This document shows, in pieces, positions 1,874 to 31,980 of a stretch of 40,734 bases of DNA. The stretch is from positions 1-40,734 of the IMG/VR virus record IMGVR_UViG_2718217713_000001; one strand, 5' to 3'. Each line of letters begins with the position of its first letter. Position 1 is the first letter of the stretch. The position numbers were made by a program, and so were the translations under genes. The stretch is from a virus. Its lineage: Duplodnaviria > Heunggongvirae > Uroviricota > Caudoviricetes. Below the pieces are notes generated by a model. It had not been told where the DNA came from and did no database searches. It was given only the letters and a program-made list of their open reading frames with translations.

Positions 1874-2070
1874 TACTGGCTGCGACATTTTTGAATAAAA
1901 GCGTCGACATTTCGGCGCTCATAACGAACTACTTTTGCACTGAAACGAATTGGTGCCAGGATAGCCCGATGACGATGCTTAATATTCCACTCACATAGCG
2001 TTTTCTGTGTAATACCTAACTTTTGGCATACTTCATCCGGGGTGAGTAAATCGTCGGGTTTCTCGCTCAT
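1870..2070 (-). CDS. AlpA/excisionase-like HTH DNA-binding protein
   Basis: 66-aa ORF, HTH-like segment LTPDEVCQKLGITQKTLCEW; RBS GAGAGG upstream of ATG; start overlaps helicase stop (ATGA); convergent with int. Confidence 0.6.
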   Translation of the reverse strand: MSEKPDDLLTPDEVCQKLGITQKTLCEWNIKHRHRAILAPIRFSAKVVRYERRNVDAFIQKCRSQY

Positions 2071-3461
2071 GCTATACCTCTCTTTTTCATGGCATCGAGC
2101 AGGATGTCCTGCACTGTTCGTTTTGAGTTGCGCCGCTCCATCACCATTTCGTCCATAGTGTCGGCAGCAATAATGTGGTGAATAAATACCGGACGATTGT
2201 GTCCGGCCTGTATCTGTCTGGTTGGGCCGATACGTTCAATAATTTGCTGATACTGCTCCAGGTCCCACCAATGTGAGAAAAATACCAGTATGTTTCCGCC
2301 GTCCTGCATGTTCAGACCGTGGCCCGCGCTGGCTGGGTGTGCAAAGAGAACAGGAATCTTTCCGGAATTCCAGTCACGTAGTGTCTGTGGATCCTGGTCG
2401 AGGTGACGACCGCGAGGAAATGCTTTAAGCAAGCGTTCAAGATCGTGTTTCCAGTGATAAGCAACCAGCACAGGTGCGCCAGCTGCTTCGGTCAGTATGC
2501 TGTCCAGCGCCTGTAGTTTGGTGTCATGCAGTTCTGACCAACTTCCGGTGTCATCTGTGTATACTGCGCCGCTGGCGATTTGCAGACACTTCAGTGTCTT
2601 TGCCGCGGCGTTTGGTGCTTCGATGCCTTCGCCATTCAGCTCGAGGAACATTTCCTTTTCCATTTCACGATACTGCTGACGGGCCTTCGGCGGCATATCC
2701 ACGCGGATTACGTTATGGATGGGGTCTTTGATATCGAACCAGTCGGTCGCATCCAGCGAGAGGGTCACATCGGCTAACGCTCGCTGTATTTCACCCTGTG
2801 AGTGAGCAAAAGGCTCCAGTTTGGTCCAGCTCTGCCCCGGAAACTGTATCGATTTGAACCAGCGTGAGGTAAACGCGCCGTAAGTGCGCCCGAGACGTTG
2901 CCCCAGGTCCACAAACCACGATTGTCCCCACAAATCTACCAGGCCGTTCGGTGCTGGCGTACCGGTGAGATTTATCCAGCGCCGGACATACTTGTGCGCC
3001 ACTTTGCCCAGCGCCGCCGCGCGCTTACCACCACCTCGCAGCCGGAAGGATTTTAGCCGGGTGCTTTCATCTGGAATGACAGTACCGAACGGCCATCGTT
3101 CTCCCAATTCCTCAACCAGCCAGACAAGGTTATCGTAGTTGATGGTGAACACGCTCGCGTTGTTGTTCGCCAACGCTGCAGAGCGCGCTTTGGCATTACC
3201 AACAATTGATTGTACCTCGATATTGCGCAAATGCCCCCACTTCAGTGCTTCATCCGGCCATGTGCTGGCAGCCACGCGCAGCGGCGCGAGAACCAGCGCA
3301 GGTTGTGTTTCTGCACCCGCCATGAAGAGGTCTTCCAGCGTAGTGAGTGTCGCTACGGTTTTACCCATTCCCATACCCGCCCAGATGTTGCCGCGCAGAA
3401 TGTTAGTTTGGTGATTGATTATGAGGTTTTGATAAATTCTGGGGTGGAATATGCTATTCAT
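2067..3461 (-). CDS. SNF2-family (DEAD/DEAH-like) helicase
   Basis: 464 aa; Walker A GMGMGKT, motif II-like DESTRLK, C-terminal helicase domain; RBS AGGTG upstream. Confidence 0.8.
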   Translation of the reverse strand: MNSIFHPRIYQNLIINHQTNILRGNIWAGMGMGKTVATLTTLEDLFMAGAETQPALVLAPLRVAASTWPDEALKWGHLRNIEVQSIVGNAKARSAALANNNASVFTINYDNLVWLVEELGERWPFGTVIPDESTRLKSFRLRGGGKRAAALGKVAHKYVRRWINLTGTPAPNGLVDLWGQSWFVDLGQRLGRTYGAFTSRWFKSIQFPGQSWTKLEPFAHSQGEIQRALADVTLSLDATDWFDIKDPIHNVIRVDMPPKARQQYREMEKEMFLELNGEGIEAPNAAAKTLKCLQIASGAVYTDDTGSWSELHDTKLQALDSILTEAAGAPVLVAYHWKHDLERLLKAFPRGRHLDQDPQTLRDWNSGKIPVLFAHPASAGHGLNMQDGGNILVFFSHWWDLEQYQQIIERIGPTRQIQAGHNRPVFIHHIIAADTMDEMVMERRNSKRTVQDILLDAMKKRGIA

Positions 3462-3490
3462 TAATACACCTATGGTAGAATATGGTCACT

Positions 3491-3518
3491 TCTCTCTCTC
3501 TATATATATATATATATA
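3491..3518. repeat. Dinucleotide microsatellite (TC)5(TA)9 immediately upstream of the RBS of 3535..4332
   Basis: Direct reading: tctctctctc + 9 x ta, followed by ACTAACGGAGG and ATG at 3535. Confidence 0.9.
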
Positions 3519-3534
3519 ACTAACGGAGGCGGGT

Positions 3535-4332
3535 ATGCCCCTGGCGAAAATATTTACAAAGCAAGTTTCTTTATTAACTATGTTTTCAGCGTTAGCTTAT
3601 GCGATGGCATATTATTTTCAGAAAGGTGTCGCATCGTATTATGGCTATCCAGACCTTTTTATTAAAATAGACTTAAATACGCTATTGTATTCGGCTGTGT
3701 GGCTTTTGTTTTTTAGTTTTTTATTTCTCGGCGCCTTATATGCGGCGTTGATGTTTGATTTGAAAGGAAAATATTATGTTCCATTTATTGTATTTATAGT
3801 TGTTATGCTAATGGCTAATATTTGTATAATAGGATTTCATTGGCCTTTTGGTTATTTCTCCGAAACTTCTGTGATGAGTGTTCAGGATATTTTATTATTT
3901 GCTATGCTTTTGTTGAATTATCACAATGTGGTGTCTATGCCAATCCATAGTAAGAGACACGAACATCATATGGAGAGCATTAGAAAATTTGGGAGGCTTG
4001 CAGAGTATAAGAACGTATTTTATTATATCGATTTAAAAATCCTAAAGTCAGCTTTTCCTTTAGGGGTGATAACGTTGTTGATATTGAGCTATACATTCGG
4101 GAAGGTTACTGCATTTAAAAATAACGAATATTATATGGTAGATGGTAGTAATACTAAAGTGTTGCTCAATTCATTTGGTAGTGGTTTTGTTGTTGGTGAT
4201 TGTGAGTCAAATAGCGCAAAATTTGAATTTGTTAATGATTTAAAAGGGATGAGATTCACAATTATGTCCTCTAAAAAGGAAATAGCTAAATTAAAAGAGT
4301 GTTTCGAAATACGTGTTAAAAATACGGATTAA
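3535..4332 (+). CDS. AT-rich multi-pass membrane protein (moron, unknown function)
   Basis: 265-aa ORF with about 5 hydrophobic helices and a soluble C-terminal tail; strong RBS GGAGG; opposite orientation to flanking early genes; low GC compared with neighbours. Confidence 0.55.
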   Translation: MPLAKIFTKQVSLLTMFSALAYAMAYYFQKGVASYYGYPDLFIKIDLNTLLYSAVWLLFFSFLFLGALYAALMFDLKGKYYVPFIVFIVVMLMANICIIGFHWPFGYFSETSVMSVQDILLFAMLLLNYHNVVSMPIHSKRHEHHMESIRKFGRLAEYKNVFYYIDLKILKSAFPLGVITLLILSYTFGKVTAFKNNEYYMVDGSNTKVLLNSFGSGFVVGDCESNSAKFEFVNDLKGMRFTIMSSKKEIAKLKECFEIRVKNTD

Positions 4333-4344
4333 AGCATAAGTCTT

Positions 4345-4632
4345 TTATCCTTTATTGCGGCTTAAAATAATGGCTTCCAGATTTTTGCTATCCAGCACCA
4401 CTACGGTAAAGCCCAGCGCGCGCAACCGTCCGTGTTCGCGCAACTGGTCAGGCCGTGGTGGCTTGCCGGGGGATTTACATTCAACGAAAATGATACGACC
4501 GCCGGGTAGCAGAACAATGCGATCTGGTACCGAGCGGCGACCGGGGGATACGAACTTAAAGGCAACCCCGCCAGCCTTTTTTACTTCAGCGACGAGGTGC
4601 TTTTCGATTAGGTTTTCACGTTCATAGGCCAT
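4345..4632 (-). CDS. VRR-NUC domain nuclease
   Basis: 95 aa; PD-(D/E)xK-type motif PDRIVLL...FVECKSP typical of VRR-NUC; start overlaps upstream stop (TAATG). Confidence 0.8.
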   Translation of the reverse strand: MAYERENLIEKHLVAEVKKAGGVAFKFVSPGRRSVPDRIVLLPGGRIIFVECKSPGKPPRPDQLREHGRLRALGFTVVVLDSKNLEAIILSRNKG

Positions 4633-4826
4633 TAGCTTTCGCCTTCCTGCTTTTTGCGTTTCTTCATGCAGATAGCGCAGTTCTCAGGATGGTCATGCCA
4701 TTCATCAATCCTGATACCTATGAACATCCATTTTCCGCATAGTGATATGGCTTCCCCCGAATTAAAGAAATGTGCTTTTTTTGACAGAGCGGGGAACCCC
4801 CAACCCTTATTATCGATATTAGACAT
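4632..4826 (-). CDS. Hypothetical small protein (Cys/His-rich C-terminus)
   Basis: 64-aa ORF with strong RBS AAGGAGGTG; C-terminal WHDHPENCAICMKK; translationally coupled to VRR-NUC. Confidence 0.45.
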   Translation of the reverse strand: MSNIDNKGWGFPALSKKAHFFNSGEAISLCGKWMFIGIRIDEWHDHPENCAICMKKRKKQEGES

Positions 4827-5010
4827 CGTCCACCTCCTTACGCTTTTCGCGCATGTTCTGCATCAGACAAAAATCAAACCGACGTTCGCTTTGGCCCAGA
4901 CCTGCATCGCCCGGTCGTACCCGCCGGACTGTTCAAGGTGCAAAGCCTCCCGCACAGTCCGGTAATAAAGCGGACTGTCCCGGTATTTAAATGACATAGG
5001 GTTTTTATTC

Positions 5011-5060: not shown

Positions 5061-5822
5061 TTACGAGGAAGCGTTAGCTATTTGAGCTTGTGTAAATTCG
5101 AAACCAGAATTTTGTAACCGTTGCACTAGACGAGGAACTGTTTCACGTACATGGTCGTTGAAATTCAGATACAAAATCCCGTTAGCATCAGAAGGCTGTT
5201 CTAGGTGCTGTTTCTGAAGGATTGCTACATTGCTGCGCCCTAAGGACGAAAGAAGCATACCCATCTCGAGTACAACGTTCTGTCTTGCGCGGGGTTGGAT
5301 TTCTGCTTCACCGGCGCGCTTTGAGTATCCCATATCATCAGGTGTCAAAAGAACAATCCCGAAACGGGTAGCAGTTTGTCCTTGCCCAATTTCACGTTCA
5401 AGCTCTTCAATAATGGTGAGTCCAGTCCCTCCCGTATTCTGCAAAATGAAATGGTCTGGTAATCCAAGTTTATGAAGGATTAGCTCAAGTTGCTCCTTTG
5501 CAGTATGGTCATGGCCGTGAACAATGAATATCTTTTTGGGGAGCTCAGATGGCTGTTCTACGGCTAGTGGTGTTGCCGTGGGCGGCGTTCCTAAATGGGT
5601 CATTATTGCAGTTTCAACATTGGGACGTTCTTGAGGGTTACCTTGAAACTGAATGGTCCGGGTGGTGTAAAGGTTAACAATTACGCCATTCGTTAAACGA
5701 TAGCAGTCACAAGTCTCACGCTGTTCGTGGGAAAAATTGGTGAACCCACACTCCCCCAAAAAGTCAGGAAAAGATTCTCTCGGGTATGGATAGGTGATCG
5801 GCATTTCAGTTAGTTCCTGCAT
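5061..5822 (-). CDS. TIR-like (COG4271/PF10137-type) domain protein with unknown N-terminal domain
   Basis: 253 aa; C-terminal about 150 aa carries motifs KIFIVHGHD, GIVLLTPDD, ARQNVVLEMG...LGR that I recall for the bacterial TIR-like nucleotide-binding family; N-terminal about 95 aa unrecognised; RBS AAAGGA upstream. Confidence 0.55.
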   Translation of the reverse strand: MQELTEMPITYPYPRESFPDFLGECGFTNFSHEQRETCDCYRLTNGVIVNLYTTRTIQFQGNPQERPNVETAIMTHLGTPPTATPLAVEQPSELPKKIFIVHGHDHTAKEQLELILHKLGLPDHFILQNTGGTGLTIIEELEREIGQGQTATRFGIVLLTPDDMGYSKRAGEAEIQPRARQNVVLEMGMLLSSLGRSNVAILQKQHLEQPSDANGILYLNFNDHVRETVPRLVQRLQNSGFEFTQAQIANASS

Positions 5823-8343: not shown

Positions 8344-8982
8344 TTAAGCATCTACCCCTTCGTCAGAAGGGAGGCCGATCATTTCGTTGAGAGTTTCGCG
8401 TCGTATAGCTGGCGGAAGCGGAGCAGATGGTGCATCGGCTGGCAGAAGTTCTTTAGCTTCAGGCCACTCTTCCAGCAGGCGCTTAACTGTGCGCACTTTA
8501 CTGAGTGCAGCGCTGACATTCTGTCGAATGTCTGACTCATCGCTCTGTATCTGCTCATAAAGTGCATCAAACCCGTAAAACTCTGTAACTAGAGGGTCAT
8601 TTGCCAGAAGGGTAAATTCCCCCGGCGCGATTTTGTGAATATGGTCTGGTGACCCTGATTCATATCCTCGATAGTTACCGTTGAAATAGACGGTAACCCG
8701 AGAACCTGCCAGATTCAGACACATGTAACACTCTTTCCTGATAATATTATTGGCGGTTTTTAATGCTTCGGGGAATTTTGATACCAGTGTTTCTATTTTT
8801 TTTATAATTTTTAATATTTCAGCTTCTTTCTCTACGCCCCCGATAGCTGCAAGCCGAACACGTTCGGCCCATTCAACACGAGCAGCTCGTAGTGCTGATT
8901 TACGTTTGGGGATACCCGCTTTCTCAAGTGCGTTATTGATGATTTGAGTTTTAAGGTGATTAGTTAATACGGGCTGTGACAT
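8344..8982 (-). CDS. Hypothetical phage protein
   Basis: ORF track 8344..8997; internal ATG at 8982 has the better RBS (GAGGGAAAG); no recognisable motif. Confidence 0.55.
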   Translation of the reverse strand: MSQPVLTNHLKTQIINNALEKAGIPKRKSALRAARVEWAERVRLAAIGGVEKEAEILKIIKKIETLVSKFPEALKTANNIIRKECYMCLNLAGSRVTVYFNGNYRGYESGSPDHIHKIAPGEFTLLANDPLVTEFYGFDALYEQIQSDESDIRQNVSAALSKVRTVKRLLEEWPEAKELLPADAPSAPLPPAIRRETLNEMIGLPSDEGVDA

Positions 8983-9034
8983 TATTCTTTCCCTCATGAG
9001 ATACCCCCAGCACGTAGCTGGGGGATGAATATTT

Positions 9035-13587: not shown

Positions 13588-15841
13588 TAACAAACCATGG
13601 GGAGCTACGCCCGATGAGTGGTTCCACTTCGATCTGGTGTTGGGGATGACAGACAGGCTTTTACCTGTGGTGTCCAATCCCTGTGCAGAACTGTCGCCTA
13701 ATAGCAAGCTGTCTCATAATTTCGGCAAAACCCCCAGTCGCTACAATGGCCAACGTAAGGTTGTTGGTATCCCCGACTGGGCTAACTATGTTGTTACGGA
13801 AAACGATTTTGCCCGGTGGTCGAACGAACCCGATTACGGTATTTGCGTTCGTACTGGCGACGGGGTGGTGGCTCTGGACTGCGATATCAATGACGCCGGG
13901 ATGCAGGAGATCGTACGCAATATTATCCTATCATGCCTGGGGGAACTTCCGCCACGTCGCTGGCGGGCTGACAGTCATAAATGCCTGTACCTGATTGCTG
14001 TTGATGGCGACTACCGTAAACGTGGTCACCGCCTGGAAGGCGAAAACAAACAAATAGAGCTGCTCGCTAAGGGCCAGCAGTTTGTGGCTTGTGGTACCCA
14101 TCCGGCAGGCGAACGTATTCAGTGGGACTGCGGTTTGCCCGGCGAACCTCTGAAAATTACATCTGAACAGCTCGAAAGCCTGTGGCAGCGTCTGGCGGAT
14201 AACTTACCCGTGAAAGACAGCTATACCGCAGGTGCAGGACGTCAGCGTGACCTTTCCTGTGTTGATCCTTCCGCGACAGATGATGTCGCCGACTGGCTTG
14301 ACGCGAACGGGTGGACTCTGTCAGTCAGCTCTGATGGTTCCCGCAATCTGAAACCGTTTCGGGATGAGTCAGAATACAGCAACGGTTGCAGCGAAACATC
14401 CATTAAGTATTTCCCAAAAGGGACGGGGGGATTTGAACAGGGACATTTTAAAAGCATGCACAACACCGATGCGGGGCTTACTGATGCCGACTGGCTGGAA
14501 GGCTACGGCTATACGCAATCCCTGTTCGAAGATCTCACGGTGGTTGAAGATGGCGATAAGCCTGAATTTACCGATATTAATACAGATATGACAGCTCATT
14601 TTCTGGAACGCTTTATCTACGTTATCGAGGGTGACCAGGTATGTGATCTTAGCCGACCGCCATATCAGTGCATGATGGATATGAAGTCGTTCAAAAACCT
14701 GATGGCGCCTTACCAGTTCCCGCCAGAAGGGAAAGGGCAACCAACTCCCGCAACCAAACGGTGGATAGAGCATCGGCATAAGAAGATTGCTGAGACGACA
14801 GGCTATAAGCCCGGTGCGGGACGTATTATCGAGCGTTTCGACGGGCGGTTTGAGATAAACGAATTTTATATGCCTGAGCATCCACGTACAGCGGATACAA
14901 GTAAGGTGTCCACGTTCCTTAATCATATGGCGTATCTGGTACCTGATGCCTGGCAGCGCGAGTTTTTCATCGCCCGTCTGGGGTGGATGGTTCAGCGTCC
15001 GGAGCGTCGATGCCCGATTTCTATTCTGCATGTGGCTACCGCACATGGTACGGGCAGAGGATGGGTCAGTCAGTTAATGGAGCGCGTGCTTGGCCCGTGG
15101 AACTGTGCTCGTACTCGCATGAAGATCCTGTGCGATAACCAGTTCCATGACTATCTGTACAATACGCTTCTATGCACCATTGACGAGGTGCGCGAAAATG
15201 ATAAGCGGTATGAGGTGAACGATAAGATCCGTGACGTGCTGACAGAACCACGGTTTGAAGTGAACCGCAAATATGGCAGCAAAAAAACGATGGATATATA
15301 CACCGGCTTTCTGTTCTACACCAACCACTTTGATGCGCTGGCGCTGCCAGAGGAAGACCGACGTATAGCTGTGCTGGGGGGCCCTGACTTCGCCGCAACT
15401 GAAGAGCATTACGCCAGCCTGTACGGTGCGCTAAGCGACAGCGACTTTATCGCCCAGGTGTACTGGTATCTAATGGGCGTTGACCTGTCTCGCTTTAACT
15501 GGCAGCGCGCCCCCGAGACGAAAGAACGCCTTCTGATGATTGAAAGCAATAAGAGCGATGTGGAGGCTGCTCTTATTGAAATCCTGGATAATCCGCCTGT
15601 GCCAGCAATGACTTATCAACAAATTGTTAACGCAATACTGGCAGAAGCAGGAATGGATGTAGAAATTAACCAGAAGCATATTACTCGCATTTTGAAAGAA
15701 AGAACAAAACGTGAAGCAGTGAAACTAAAAGTGGACGGCATGACTGTTCGCATGTGGATGCTTGCAAAAAATTGCGACTTCAATAATGAGGAATTGCGTG
15801 AAATATATAAAACATGCGAAATTTTGCAATCTGGATTGTAA
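13580..15841 (+). CDS. Replication initiation protein with N-terminal primase-polymerase (AEP-like) domain
   Basis: 753 aa; DxD-type motif VVALDCDIND and downstream His-containing motif; no canonical Walker A seen in the C-terminal part; immediately followed by the iteron array. Confidence 0.65.
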   Translation: MSDNKPWGATPDEWFHFDLVLGMTDRLLPVVSNPCAELSPNSKLSHNFGKTPSRYNGQRKVVGIPDWANYVVTENDFARWSNEPDYGICVRTGDGVVALDCDINDAGMQEIVRNIILSCLGELPPRRWRADSHKCLYLIAVDGDYRKRGHRLEGENKQIELLAKGQQFVACGTHPAGERIQWDCGLPGEPLKITSEQLESLWQRLADNLPVKDSYTAGAGRQRDLSCVDPSATDDVADWLDANGWTLSVSSDGSRNLKPFRDESEYSNGCSETSIKYFPKGTGGFEQGHFKSMHNTDAGLTDADWLEGYGYTQSLFEDLTVVEDGDKPEFTDINTDMTAHFLERFIYVIEGDQVCDLSRPPYQCMMDMKSFKNLMAPYQFPPEGKGQPTPATKRWIEHRHKKIAETTGYKPGAGRIIERFDGRFEINEFYMPEHPRTADTSKVSTFLNHMAYLVPDAWQREFFIARLGWMVQRPERRCPISILHVATAHGTGRGWVSQLMERVLGPWNCARTRMKILCDNQFHDYLYNTLLCTIDEVRENDKRYEVNDKIRDVLTEPRFEVNRKYGSKKTMDIYTGFLFYTNHFDALALPEEDRRIAVLGGPDFAATEEHYASLYGALSDSDFIAQVYWYLMGVDLSRFNWQRAPETKERLLMIESNKSDVEAALIEILDNPPVPAMTYQQIVNAILAEAGMDVEINQKHITRILKERTKREAVKLKVDGMTVRMWMLAKNCDFNNEELREIYKTCEILQSGL

Positions 15842-15844
15842 AAA

Positions 15845-16109
15845 GGTGGCAGCAAGGTGGCAGATAAACGACTAACTGCCACCTTAAAAAGTGCATATAA
15901 ATCAATTTGATACTGTAAAAAGGTGGCAGGTGGCAGTAGAATTTAAATTATATACGCGAGAACTTATATTTTATGTATTATGCGATCTCTTATATATATA
16001 TATATAACTAAAACTATCTGCCACCTGCCACCAAAATAGCCCGGAGCCTTACGTGGCGTGCGTTTCAGGAGGTGGCAGATAGCTATTTAACTGCCACCTA
16101 ACTGCCACC
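15845..16109. repeat. Origin-like iteron array: 10 copies of GGTGGCAG (5 forward, 5 inverted) around an AT-rich core
   Basis: Forward copies at 15845, 15856, 15922, 15929, 16071; inverted CTGCCACC at 15876, 16018, 16025, 16091, 16102; AT-rich core 15940..16015 includes (TA)8. Confidence 0.75.
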
Positions 16110-16158
16110 CGGAAATTAACTTGAAAAAATTAGCAAATAACTAAATGAGGATACGACG

Positions 16159-31386: not shown

Positions 31387-31414
31387 TTGTAAGTCATAAA
31401 TAGAGTGATAGAAT
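31387..31414 (+). promoter_or_regulatory. Candidate sigma70 promoter for the tail-module moron
   Basis: TTGTAA-N16-TAGAAT in the AT-rich spacer after the tape-measure gene. Confidence 0.35.
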
Positions 31415-31449: not shown

Positions 31450-31980
31450 ATGAAAGGCTATATCACAGCAAGTGTAATTCTTGGAGCAGCGGCTATTTTT
31501 TCATCTCTCATAATCTCTGGCAACATCTCCTTTAAAGATGAACATATTATTCAGTTATCTGGAGGAGCCATAAAACTTGGTGATGTTTATAAAGAAAATA
31601 AATTGATAAGTGCAAAGATTATTTTTCCAGATAATCAGGGTGAACAGATTCTTGTTGTCGACGGCAATCCTGAAAACTTTAAGGAGGATTTTCAGGAGAA
31701 ATTAAATAAAGTAATAAAAACTTTAAATGCGTCAAAGAAAAAAGATGAAGAGAAAGTTAGTCTGGATAATTTAAGTGTTATTGAAGAGTCTAAACTAGAG
31801 CTCGTTTCTGCGGTGCGTTACTCTGCTCAGTATGTTCCTATGTTTACTCTGACGCTGGACAAAAAAGAAATTACCATGCCTAAAAATACGGTAATATTTC
31901 CATTTGCCAGCGATGAAACAGCTAAGTATTTAAATGAACAACAGCAAAAGTATAAAGATTCGTTGTTTCTGACTCGCTAA
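31450..31980 (+). CDS. AT-rich exported/membrane-anchored protein (moron within tail module)
   Basis: 176 aa, N-terminal signal/anchor helix (ITASVILGAAAIFSSLIISG), Lys/Glu-rich; low GC; own terminator. Confidence 0.5.
   Translation: MKGYITASVILGAAAIFSSLIISGNISFKDEHIIQLSGGAIKLGDVYKENKLISAKIIFPDNQGEQILVVDGNPENFKEDFQEKLNKVIKTLNASKKKDEEKVSLDNLSVIEESKLELVSAVRYSAQYVPMFTLTLDKKEITMPKNTVIFPFASDETAKYLNEQQQKYKDSLFLTR

What the first reader, a model, noticed from the sequence alone, without database searches (positions are those of the whole stretch)
3462..4332. AT-rich membrane-protein moron preceded by a (TC)5(TA)9 microsatellite: candidate phase-variable accessory gene
The gene 3535..4332 is on the opposite strand to all surrounding early genes, is markedly AT-rich and encodes a multi-pass membrane protein with no recognised family. 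Its upstream region consists of a dinucleotide repeat tract ending 16 nt before the start codon. Tracts like this in promoter spacers are a known mechanism of slipped-strand phase variation, and phage-borne membrane proteins in such positions are often superinfection-exclusion or abortive-infection factors.
Basis: partly seen in the sequence, partly recalled or inferred. Interest (0 to 1): 0.55.

Follow-up and report, generated by a model that had tools for sequence, protein, structure and literature searches.

The report
Prophage membrane gene with slippery leader repeat
An E. coli prophage carries a foreign-looking gene for an uncharacterised inner-membrane protein, and the dinucleotide repeat in front of it changes length between near-identical strains, but the repeat lies after the likely promoter, so it is probably a fast-mutating leader sequence and not an on/off switch.

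Summary
(TC)5 lies at 3491-3500 and (TA)9 at 3501-3518. Sixteen nt separate the tract from the ATG at 3535. The 265-codon ORF has 32% GC against 54% for its neighbour, lies on the opposite strand to its flanking genes, and is under purifying selection (dN/dS 0.06-0.25).

The tract is hypermutable. In 21 related E. coli loci it ranges from (TC)4(TA)4 to (TC)5(TA)9, including loci that have no SNP in about 3 kb of flank.

The tract does not sit in a promoter spacer. Every plus-strand promoter candidate lies upstream of it, including a conserved extended -10 (TGgTAGAAT, 3473-3481). It is therefore most likely transcribed leader. RNA folding predicts the same Shine-Dalgarno accessibility for every allele. 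The Raoultella orthologue has no repeat.

The protein belongs to a sparse, unnamed family of 69 representatives. The AlphaFold2 model is confident (pLDDT 92): five helices followed by a small beta domain, with no solved structural relative. It fills a variable cargo slot between the helicase and VRR-NUC genes of an inducible temperate phage family. Relatives lie in prophage accessory slots, next to a TIR defence candidate or next to a restriction-modification system.

My best reading is an envelope-level phage-exclusion or defence gene expressed from the lysogen, with the repeat acting at most as a rheostat. Function is inferred, not shown.

The parts
3462..3490 (.). Divergent control block between the helicase start codon (3459-3461, minus strand) and the repeat. 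It holds the helicase Shine-Dalgarno (AGGTG, 3467-3471 on the minus strand) and the promoter of the membrane gene.
   Evidence: The part 3462-3483 is invariant in all 21 E. coli loci and has one mismatch in the Raoultella orthologue, although dS between those genes is 0.66.
3473..3481 (+). Extended -10 promoter element TGgTAGAAT. The presumed transcription start is near A3488.
   Evidence: It is one of only two TGNTANAAT matches in 40.7 kb on both strands (5.3 expected), and both sit just upstream of an ORF. It is conserved in all alleles and in Raoultella. The transcription start is inferred, not mapped.
3491..3500 (+). (TC)5 microsatellite, 4 or 5 copies in relatives.
3501..3518 (+). (TA)9 microsatellite, 4 to 9 copies in relatives. 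The window carries the longest allele seen.
3524..3543 (+). Predicted leader hairpin that pairs the Shine-Dalgarno GGAGG (3525-3529) with codons 2-4. It is the same in every tract allele.
   Evidence: RNAfold gives a Shine-Dalgarno unpaired probability of 0.14-0.21 for all alleles. The minus-strand version of the hairpin was flagged as terminator-like.
3535..4332 (+). CDS for a 265-aa inner-membrane protein. It has five predicted helices, a K/R-rich loop at 135-171, and a C-terminal beta domain at 196-265 with two cysteines conserved across the enterobacterial relatives (C223, C256).
2067..3461 (-). SNF2/DEAD helicase gene, the left border of the variable cargo slot.
4345..4632 (-). VRR-NUC nuclease gene, the right border of the slot. 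Its stop codon lies 12 nt from the stop of the membrane gene, which leaves no room for a terminator.
5061..5822 (-). Neighbouring TIR-domain gene (PADLOC candidate PDC-S35). It is context, not shown to be part of the same unit.

Best explanation
**Shown.**
- The gene 3535..4332 is a real, selected, horizontally acquired accessory gene.
- It sits in a variable cargo slot between the helicase and VRR-NUC genes of a temperate E. coli phage family.
- It is one of 69 representatives of an unnamed family of membrane proteins of about 230-290 aa.
- The (TC)n(TA)n tract changes length much faster than the surrounding DNA accumulates substitutions or other indels.

**Inferred.**
- The gene is transcribed on its own from the conserved extended -10 promoter at 3473-3481. 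The tract would then occupy about +4 to +31 of a roughly 47-nt leader.
- The tract is therefore not a promoter-spacer switch. It is a slippage-prone microsatellite that is either neutral or tunes expression quantitatively. One possible route is as an AU/pyrimidine-rich, S1-type leader element just upstream of the Shine-Dalgarno.
- By the positive-inside rule the protein inserts N-in, C-out, which puts the cysteine-pair beta domain and a family-wide conserved loop (residues 29-48) in the periplasm.
- It most likely acts at the envelope of the lysogen to exclude or abort superinfecting phage.
For: **Real gene.**
- dN/dS is 0.06-0.25 against four E. coli alleles and the Raoultella orthologue, with no internal stop codons.
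- The profile search found 69 representatives at E<=1e-3, with family-wide motifs.
- AlphaFold2 with the 61-sequence alignment gives pLDDT 91.8 and pTM 0.86.

**Accessory gene in a variable slot.**
- 17 of 5426 complete E. coli genomes carry it, while 102 match parts of the query, most of them only the flanking helicase or VRR-NUC gene.
- The same slot elsewhere holds DUF6338 plus a hypothetical gene, Rha plus Arc regulators, a 309-aa ORF plus a Dcm methylase, other ORFs in the isolated phages vB_EcoM-689R2 and 606R2, or a family member only 20% identical (hhalign probability 99.7%).
- A Yersinia prophage has a 25%-identical member in the same slot.

**Phage and defence context of relatives.**
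- An Enterobacter member lies between xis and the next leftward genes of a lambdoid prophage, on the opposite strand.
- A Serratia marcescens member lies 1.2 kb from a TIR gene of the same Pfam family (CAP12-PCTIR_TIR) as the window's PDC-S35 gene.
- A metagenomic member directly follows a type II restriction-modification pair.
- A TIR gene of that family neighbours the membrane gene in E. coli and Raoultella; the window's own copy matches PADLOC PDC-S35.

**Hypermutable tract.**
- Alleles seen are (5,9), (4,7), (5,6), (4,6), (4,5) and (4,4).
- Pairs with 0 SNPs in about 3.1 kb still differ in the tract (L003/L006, L026/L030).
- (5,9) and (4,7) occur in loci 2 SNPs apart.
- Among 11 close loci only three other internal indels exist, each private to one assembly.

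**Tract lies downstream of the promoter.** The promoter block is conserved while the tract region is not.

**No translational switch predicted.**

**Topology.** Loop 135-171 has 8 K/R. Loops 29-48 and 102-116 are neutral or acidic. C223 and C256 are invariant in the alignment of 15 enterobacterial relatives.
Against: - No transcription start, expression level or phenotype has been measured.
- The extended -10 has no recognisable -35. In a crude position-weight scan, two other upstream candidates score higher.
- A weak candidate of the form TGGTCA-N16/18-TATATA would use the TA run as its -10. It exists only in the longer alleles. It lacks the critical -7 T, but I cannot exclude it.
- The defence reading rests on association only.
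- One member is a lone chromosomal gene next to proA in Serratia, with no phage context.
- There is no terminator after the gene.
Confidence: 0.45

Rival explanations
1. **True contingency locus.** Tract length switches or strongly modulates transcription of the membrane gene. One route is a second promoter whose -10 is supplied by the TA run (TGGTCA 3483-3488, N16/18, TATATA). Other routes are DNA bending, H-NS nucleation or sigma70-dependent pausing at -10-like TATA(T/A) motifs in the initial transcribed region. Lysogen populations would then be mixed for expression.
For: - Length polymorphism is high between near-identical loci.
- The tract has persisted in both E. coli allele groups, which differ by dS of about 0.15.
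- The putative TA-run -10 exists only in alleles with (TC)5(TA)>=5 or (TC)4(TA)>=6 (read directly from the sequence).
- The classic precedent is the (TA)n tract between hifA and hifB in Haemophilus influenzae (own knowledge).
Against: - No plus-strand promoter candidate among the top scorers overlaps the tract in any allele.
- TATATA lacks the -7 T.
- Allele lengths form a broad 16-28 nt spread and do not cluster around an optimum.
- The Raoultella orthologue and all more distant family members lack any repeat.
- Predicted Shine-Dalgarno accessibility does not change with allele.
- E. coli is mismatch-repair proficient and has few known repeat-based switches (own knowledge).
Confidence: 0.13
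2. **Neutral microsatellite.** The tract arose by slippage from a TAGATAGA-like ancestral leader in a sequence under no constraint. Its length has no effect on fitness or expression. The gene is simply constitutive, or silenced by H-NS.
For: - The ancestral-like Raoultella leader reads ...CCTAGATAGACCTAACGG... with no repeat.
- The allele spectrum is continuous.
- The second long TA run of the window, in the origin-like region, also differs in length among relatives.
- No allele effect on RNA structure is predicted.
Against: This cannot be told apart from a rheostat without measurement. The tract ends 6 nt before the Shine-Dalgarno, where AU-rich leader sequence is known to affect translation (own knowledge).
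Confidence: 0.4
3. **The tract matters for the minus strand.** It lies 30-57 nt upstream of the helicase start codon. It might form part of a helicase promoter, or part of the leader of the leftward replication-gene transcript that must cross the membrane gene in antisense.
For: A minus-strand candidate, TAGAGA-N17-TACCAT, uses the TA/GA junction as its -35. Its spacer is 17 nt with (TC)4 and 19 nt with (TC)5, and its score falls from 7.8 to 5.3. The geometry is divergent, as at hifA/hifB.
Against: - Scores of that size occur about once per 450 nt in this window.
- The predicted start (about 3466) would fall between the helicase Shine-Dalgarno and its ATG.
- Relatives with other cargo in the slot have no repeat.
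Confidence: 0.05
4. **The protein is not a phage-exclusion factor.** It could be a pilus-related accessory protein (as the 'TfpB' label might suggest), an envelope or housekeeping-type membrane protein, or a protein that serves the phage's own life cycle.
For: - The precomputed PF27470 'TfpB' label applies to family members.
- The gross layout, N-terminal transmembrane helices plus a periplasmic C-terminal domain, resembles TfpY/FimB-like pilin accessory proteins (PMC11841053).
- A Serratia member lies in a non-phage chromosomal context.
- Diverged members recur in the same slot across E. coli, Raoultella and Yersinia prophages.
Against: - No pilin or pilus gene lies near any member examined.
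- The architecture differs: five helices plus one sheet and a C-terminal helix, against three helices plus two three-stranded sheets.
- The slot often holds unrelated cargo or lacks the gene, so the phage does not need it.
Confidence: 0.3

Closest known systems
Promoter-spacer dinucleotide phase variation, for example the (TA)9-11 tract between hifA and hifB of Haemophilus influenzae (own knowledge: van Ham et al. 1993)
   Same: A perfect TA dinucleotide tract in a short divergent intergenic region, with copy-number polymorphism between closely related strains.
   Different: Here the tract lies downstream of every plausible -10 element, so it is leader and not spacer. The length range is 12 nt. 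No effect on expression has been shown. The host is mismatch-repair-proficient E. coli.
Prophage morons and lysogenic-conversion membrane proteins that block superinfection (P22 SieA, HK97 gp15, T4 Imm, lactococcal Sie2009; own knowledge)
   Same: A small inner-membrane protein encoded by a temperate phage, with atypical GC and orientation opposite to its neighbours. It appears to have its own promoter and is present or absent among related phages.
   Different: No sequence or fold similarity to any of them. It is larger, with five helices and a 70-aa beta domain. No terminator follows the gene. No phenotype is known.
Hotspots of anti-phage cargo in temperate phages and satellites (P2/P4 hotspots; own knowledge: Rousset et al. 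2022)
   Same: A fixed position between conserved core genes (helicase and VRR-NUC) holds alternative, unrelated cargo in different relatives. A TIR defence candidate (PDC-S35) lies 0.7 kb away.
   Different: This is a different phage family, whose polymerase is distantly related to those of Yersinia YeP4-6 and Bordetella BPP-1. None of the cargo has been tested. Some cargo is regulatory (Rha, Arc).
TfpY/FimB-like type IV pilin accessory proteins (PMC11841053) and the Pfam label PF27470 'TfpB'
   Same: Size of about 235-265 aa, N-terminal transmembrane helices, and a predicted periplasmic C-terminal globular domain. Family members carry the PF27470 label in the precomputed table.
   Different: Five helices, not three. 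One beta sheet plus a C-terminal helix, not two three-stranded sheets. No pilin gene nearby. PF27470 is absent from the local Pfam copy, so I could not examine its definition or its relation to TfpY-like proteins.
AU-rich, S1-binding leader enhancers of translation in E. coli (own knowledge: Boni 1991, Komarova 2005)
   Same: An unstructured U/A- and pyrimidine-rich sequence immediately upstream of the Shine-Dalgarno.
   Different: This is purely positional inference. No measurement exists, and in the model the Shine-Dalgarno itself is occluded by a downstream hairpin whatever the allele.

Membership tests
Repeat-mediated transcriptional phase variation (promoter-spacer type) | Perfect tandem short-unit repeat tract | tested here: met
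   (TC)5(TA)9 at 3491-3518
Repeat-mediated transcriptional phase variation (promoter-spacer type) | Copy number varies among closely related strains | tested here: met
   Six alleles in 21 loci. Differences occur between loci with 0-2 SNPs in about 3 kb.
Repeat-mediated transcriptional phase variation (promoter-spacer type) | Tract lies between, or overlaps, the -35 and -10 elements of the regulated promoter | tested here: not met
   By sequence prediction only. The extended -10 at 3473-3481 and all top plus-strand position-weight candidates lie upstream of the tract in every allele. No transcription start has been mapped.
Repeat-mediated transcriptional phase variation (promoter-spacer type) | Expression switches with copy number | not testable with these tools
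   Needs reporter fusions or RNA data. RNA folding predicts no allele effect on Shine-Dalgarno accessibility.
Phage moron / lysogenic-conversion gene | Base composition unlike the surrounding phage genes | tested here: met
   GC 0.32 and GC3 0.32, against 0.54 and 0.58 for the helicase
Phage moron / lysogenic-conversion gene | Present in some and absent from other closely related phages at the same position | tested here: met
Phage moron / lysogenic-conversion gene | Own promoter and own terminator | tested here: inconclusive
   A promoter-like extended -10 is present and conserved. No terminator is present: only 12 nt separate the convergent stop codons.
Phage moron / lysogenic-conversion gene | Expressed from the repressed prophage | not testable with these tools
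   No transcript data available here.
Known anti-phage defence or superinfection-exclusion protein families | Sequence or fold match to a described family | tested here: not met
Known anti-phage defence or superinfection-exclusion protein families | Protects the cell against phage | not testable with these tools
   Needs expression and phage challenge.
Pfam PF27470 'TfpB' | Score above the family's gathering threshold | tested here: inconclusive
   The precomputed label is 'weak' for the window protein, 'faint' for the Yersinia member and unmarked for Serratia P0009. The model is not in the local Pfam copy.
TfpY/FimB-like pilin accessory proteins | Three transmembrane helices plus a periplasmic domain with two three-stranded sheets | tested here: not met
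   The model has five helices, one sheet (strands 200-243) and a C-terminal helix, compared with the description in PMC11841053.
TfpY/FimB-like pilin accessory proteins | Encoded next to a major pilin gene | tested here: not met
   No pilin gene lies in any of the contexts examined.

The most novel reading that the evidence does not exclude
The tract is a genuine contingency element in E. coli, a species in which repeat-based switches are thought to be rare. Slippage in the leader of a prophage cargo gene would generate lysogen subpopulations that express different levels of a membrane protein with a previously unseen fold. That protein would block superinfecting phage at the envelope. This would be heritable but reversible bet-hedging of a prophage-encoded defence whose expression carries a cost.
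Probability: 0.1. Interest if true: 0.7.

Novelty: new member of a known kind. Interest (0 to 1): 0.38.

Why it matters
If the protein does exclude phage, it would add a new single-gene, envelope-level defence family with a confident model and no solved structural relative. It would also mark the helicase/VRR-NUC slot of this prophage family as a cargo hotspot worth mining. If leader length tunes its expression, that would be a rare example of microsatellite-driven variation of a prophage gene in E. coli. As things stand, the repeat polymorphism is real, but its position argues against a classical switch. The finding is therefore a reasonable candidate for a small experiment, not a surprise.

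Tried and rejected
**Family and structure searches**
- Pfam, NCBIfam, PADLOC and PHROGs gave nothing usable on the protein or on 61 family members.
- A sequence search of PDB returned only hydrophobic noise.
- The first AlphaFold2 run with 8 sequences was poor (pLDDT 47). The run with 61 sequences was good.

**The 'TfpB' label**
- Literature hits for TfpB were for covalent organic frameworks, an anaesthetic nerve block, type IVb pili or the Acinetobacter PilB-like motor. None concerned this family.
- Cluster names are all 'hypothetical'.
- A third homologue search seeded with Serratia P0009 added nothing.

**Other searches that found nothing**
- No phage record holds the gene, by DNA or by protein search.
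- No paper mentions WP_001127518 or the related phage vB_EcoM-606R2.
- Pattern scans of metagenome and genome contigs for more alleles found nothing.
- The search for related loci failed on the diverse alignments and found nothing in genome contigs. The viral-contig scan gave 6 more loci.
- Rfam gave no hit, and no other notable repeats were found.

**Ideas tested and dropped**
- That (UC)n pairs with the Shine-Dalgarno to make a length-dependent translational switch. The minimum-free-energy and ensemble structures instead pair the Shine-Dalgarno with codons 2-4 in all alleles.
- That the TIR gene and the membrane gene form one system. They occur independently.
- That the 234-aa gene beside the Serratia member is a paralogue. 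It is not.
- That the (TA)9 tract is an origin-type DNA-unwinding element like the one at 15991. No GGTGGCAG iterons lie near 3500.
Full report
**1. What is in the sequence**

The window reads ...CAT (helicase start, minus strand, 3459-3461), then TAATACACCTATGGTAGAATATGGTCACT, (TC)5 at 3491-3500, (TA)9 at 3501-3518, ACTAACGGAGGCGGGT, and ATG at 3535. Tandem Repeats Finder reports the TA run.

The ORF 3535..4332 (+) encodes 265 aa. Its left neighbour is an SNF2/DEAD helicase, 2067..3461 (-). Its right neighbour is a VRR-NUC nuclease, 4345..4632 (-). The stop codon of the nuclease gene is only 12 nt from the stop codon of the ORF. GC falls to 0.30-0.35 across the gene, against about 0.53-0.57 in the flanks. 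GC3 is 0.32, against 0.58 for the helicase.

**2. Where the window comes from**

The window is an E. coli prophage integrated next to yfhL. It is 100% identical to strains C10 and C11, both at this locus and at the origin-like region.

The gene order from the left is:
- integrase
- HTH_17 protein
- helicase
- the membrane gene
- VRR-NUC
- a small ORF
- a TIR protein
- a family A DNA polymerase
- an Nmad5 gene
- DUF2815 and DUF2800 genes
- a CI-like repressor
- a Prim-Pol/DUF5906 primase

The polymerase region is 95.8% identical to the isolated Escherichia phages vB_EcoM-606R2, 689R2 and 611R5. It is about 67% identical to the polymerases of Yersinia phages YeP4-6 and Bordetella phage BPP-1.

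**3. The repeat is hypermutable**

In ten complete E. coli genomes, five further assemblies that encode the identical protein, and six IMG/VR contigs, the flanks of the tract are fixed. The tract itself is (TC)4-5(TA)4-9. The alleles are (5,9), (4,7), (5,6), (4,6), (4,5) and (4,4). The window carries the longest.
- Loci with zero substitutions in about 3.1 kb of flanking alignment differ in the tract: L003 against L006, and L026 against L030.
- (5,9) and (4,7) occur in loci only 2 SNPs apart.
- Among the 11 closest loci only three other internal indels exist, each private to one assembly.

The second long TA run of the window is (TA)8 at 15991-16006. It lies in an iteron-flanked origin-like region and is also shorter or interrupted in relatives. 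Length change is thus a general property of such runs here, not evidence of selection.

**4. The repeat is not in a promoter spacer**

The only strong -10 element in the intergenic region is an extended -10, TGgTAGAAT, at 3473-3481. TGNTANAAT occurs only twice in the whole window on both strands, where 5.3 are expected. Both copies sit just upstream of an ORF.

I ran a crude -35/-10 position-weight scan, using frequencies recalled from the literature, on all six alleles. Every top plus-strand candidate (TTGATA-N15-TATGCT, and TGaTAAATT with two alternative -35 hexamers) lies upstream of the tract, and none changes with allele. The consensus scanner found nothing in the intergenic region.

With a start near A3488, which is inferred, the tract occupies about +4 to +31 of a roughly 47-nt leader and ends 6 nt before the Shine-Dalgarno GGAGG.

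Three more observations point the same way:
- Total tract lengths of 16-28 nt are incompatible with a functional 16-18 nt spacer.
- The block 3462-3483 is invariant in all E. coli loci and has one mismatch in the Raoultella orthologue, although dS is 0.66. The Raoultella sequence at the tract position is TAATCCTAGATAGAC, with no repeat.
- More distant family members and other cargo genes in the same slot also have -10-like elements close to the helicase start and no repeats.

RNA folding of the presumed leader pairs the Shine-Dalgarno with codons 2-4 (hairpin 3524-3543) in every allele. The Shine-Dalgarno unpaired probability is 0.14-0.21 whatever the tract. No translational switch is predicted.

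Two weak alternatives remain:
- TGGTCA-N16/18-TATATA would use the TA run as its -10 in long alleles only, but it lacks the -7 T.
- A minus-strand candidate, TAGAGA-N17/19-TACCAT, has a spacer that depends on TC copy number. Its score is at background level and its predicted start falls after the helicase Shine-Dalgarno.

**5. The protein**

The gene is under purifying selection (dN/dS 0.06-0.25).
- Close homologues are confined to Enterobacterales: 7 clusters at 55-92% identity.
- An exhaustive profile search of 1.84 billion representatives found 69 proteins at E<=1e-3, mostly 230-290 aa.
- They share an N-terminal motif, AYxFQxGxAxYYGxPxxFIxxDL, and a conserved glycine at the end of the last helix.
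- The enterobacterial subgroup also shares VLLNSFGxxxxxGxC...KxCF, with C223 and C256 invariant in the 15-sequence enterobacterial alignment.
- Members come from Serratia, Yersinia, Enterobacter, Bacillus cereus, Prosthecobacter and metagenomes. All are named 'hypothetical'.

Loop charges (8 K/R in 135-171, neutral or acidic in 29-48 and 102-116) fit an N-in, C-out topology. That places the conserved loop 29-48 and the cysteine-pair beta domain in the periplasm. This topology is inferred.

The large database attaches a precomputed label, PF27470 'TfpB', to members: weak for this protein, unmarked for a Serratia member. The model is not in the local Pfam copy and I could not establish what it stands for.

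The TfpY/FimB-like pilin accessory proteins share the gross layout but differ in detail. They have three helices and two three-stranded sheets (PMC11841053). No member examined here lies near a pilin gene.

**6. Genomic context**

Seventeen of 5426 complete E. coli genomes carry the gene. In all, 102 match the query, and most of the rest match only the flanking helicase or VRR-NUC gene. In relatives, the slot between the helicase and VRR-NUC genes holds:
- DUF6338 plus a hypothetical gene
- Rha plus two Arc-family regulators
- a 243-aa member of the same family at 20% identity (hhalign probability 99.7%)
- a 309-aa ORF plus a Dcm methylase
- other ORFs in the isolated phages

A Yersinia prophage of the same family has a 25%-identical member in the same slot. 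A Raoultella prophage has an 86%-identical one.

Elsewhere, members lie:
- between xis and the next leftward genes of a lambdoid Enterobacter prophage, on the opposite strand
- 1.2 kb from a TIR gene of the CAP12-PCTIR_TIR Pfam family in Serratia marcescens
- directly after a type II restriction-modification pair in a metagenomic genome
- as a lone gene next to proA in Serratia

The TIR gene at 5061..5822 matches PADLOC candidate PDC-S35 (E 2e-108). It occurs independently of the membrane gene.

**7. Interpretation**

Shown:
- A real, selected, foreign-composition accessory gene sits in a variable slot of a temperate phage family.
- The dinucleotide tract upstream of it is hypermutable.

Inferred:
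- The gene is transcribed from the extended -10, which makes the tract leader sequence.
- The protein is an N-in, C-out inner-membrane protein.
- It acts at the envelope against superinfecting phage, a reading that rests only on association with prophage accessory slots and defence genes.

I rate a classical on/off contingency switch as unlikely (about 0.1-0.15). I cannot separate a neutral microsatellite from a modest rheostat, for instance through AU-rich leader effects on ribosome recruitment.

**8. Novelty and score**

Morons, phage cargo hotspots and polymorphic microsatellites are all known kinds. What is new is the protein family, which has a confident model without a solved relative and no annotation, and its pairing with a fast-changing leader repeat in E. 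coli. I file it as a new member of a known kind, of moderate interest. It is testable with a handful of reporter constructs and a phage panel.

Noticed in passing
window 5061..5822 (-): A TIR-domain protein (Pfam CAP12-PCTIR_TIR) matches PADLOC defence candidate PDC-S35 over its full length (E 2e-108). It is carried inside the replication-gene block of the prophage. Among relatives it is present or absent independently of the membrane gene. In some E. coli copies a plus-strand 'ATP-binding protein' takes its place.
   Followed up: partly
window 15840..16110: This is an origin-like region directly after the Prim-Pol/DUF5906 gene. Ten copies of GGTGGCAG (1.3 expected) lie in direct and inverted pairs around an AT-rich core containing (TA)8 at 15991-16006. 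The TA run is shorter or interrupted in relatives. It shares the string CTCT(TA)nACTAA with the leader at 3496-3523, which is probably coincidence.
   Followed up: partly
window 3462..4344, and the same slot in L031-L036: The position between the helicase and VRR-NUC genes is a variable cargo slot. In relatives it holds DUF6338 plus a hypothetical gene, Rha plus two Arc regulators, a 309-aa ORF plus a Dcm methylase, a highly diverged member of the same membrane family, or other ORFs in phages vB_EcoM-689R2 and 606R2.
   Followed up: partly
window 8344..8997 (-): A gene with a full-length Nmad5 (nucleotide modification associated domain 5) match (E 1e-56) lies between the DNA polymerase and DUF2815 genes. 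It hints at DNA base modification by this phage. Strain 14EC029 has a different, plus-strand hypothetical gene at this position.
   Followed up: no
window about 4819..4997 (-): The 'ANR family transcriptional regulator' gene is annotated as frameshifted in nearly every E. coli copy inspected. This could be a shared pseudogene, a recoding site or an annotation artefact.
   Followed up: no
L006 (E. coli JNEC-KY180), inside the membrane gene: A 7-nt tandem duplication (ATGGTAG) frameshifts the gene to a 206-aa product in this one strain.
   Followed up: partly
window 3524..3543: A predicted hairpin pairs the Shine-Dalgarno GGAGG with codons 2-4 of the membrane gene. On the minus strand the same hairpin, followed by the U/A-rich repeat, was flagged as terminator-like. 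It could affect antisense read-through towards the helicase.
   Followed up: partly
window 31406..31414 (+): The only other TGNTANAAT extended -10 match in the window (TGATAGAAT) lies in the gap just upstream of ORF 31450..31980. It is a likely internal promoter within the late region.
   Followed up: no
L023 5815..9719: In a metagenomic genome a distant family member is followed, in apparent operon arrangement, by a 1106-aa protein and a 195-aa protein with no Pfam or PADLOC match. It is preceded by a type II restriction-modification pair. This may be an uncharacterised multi-gene defence locus.
   Followed up: partly
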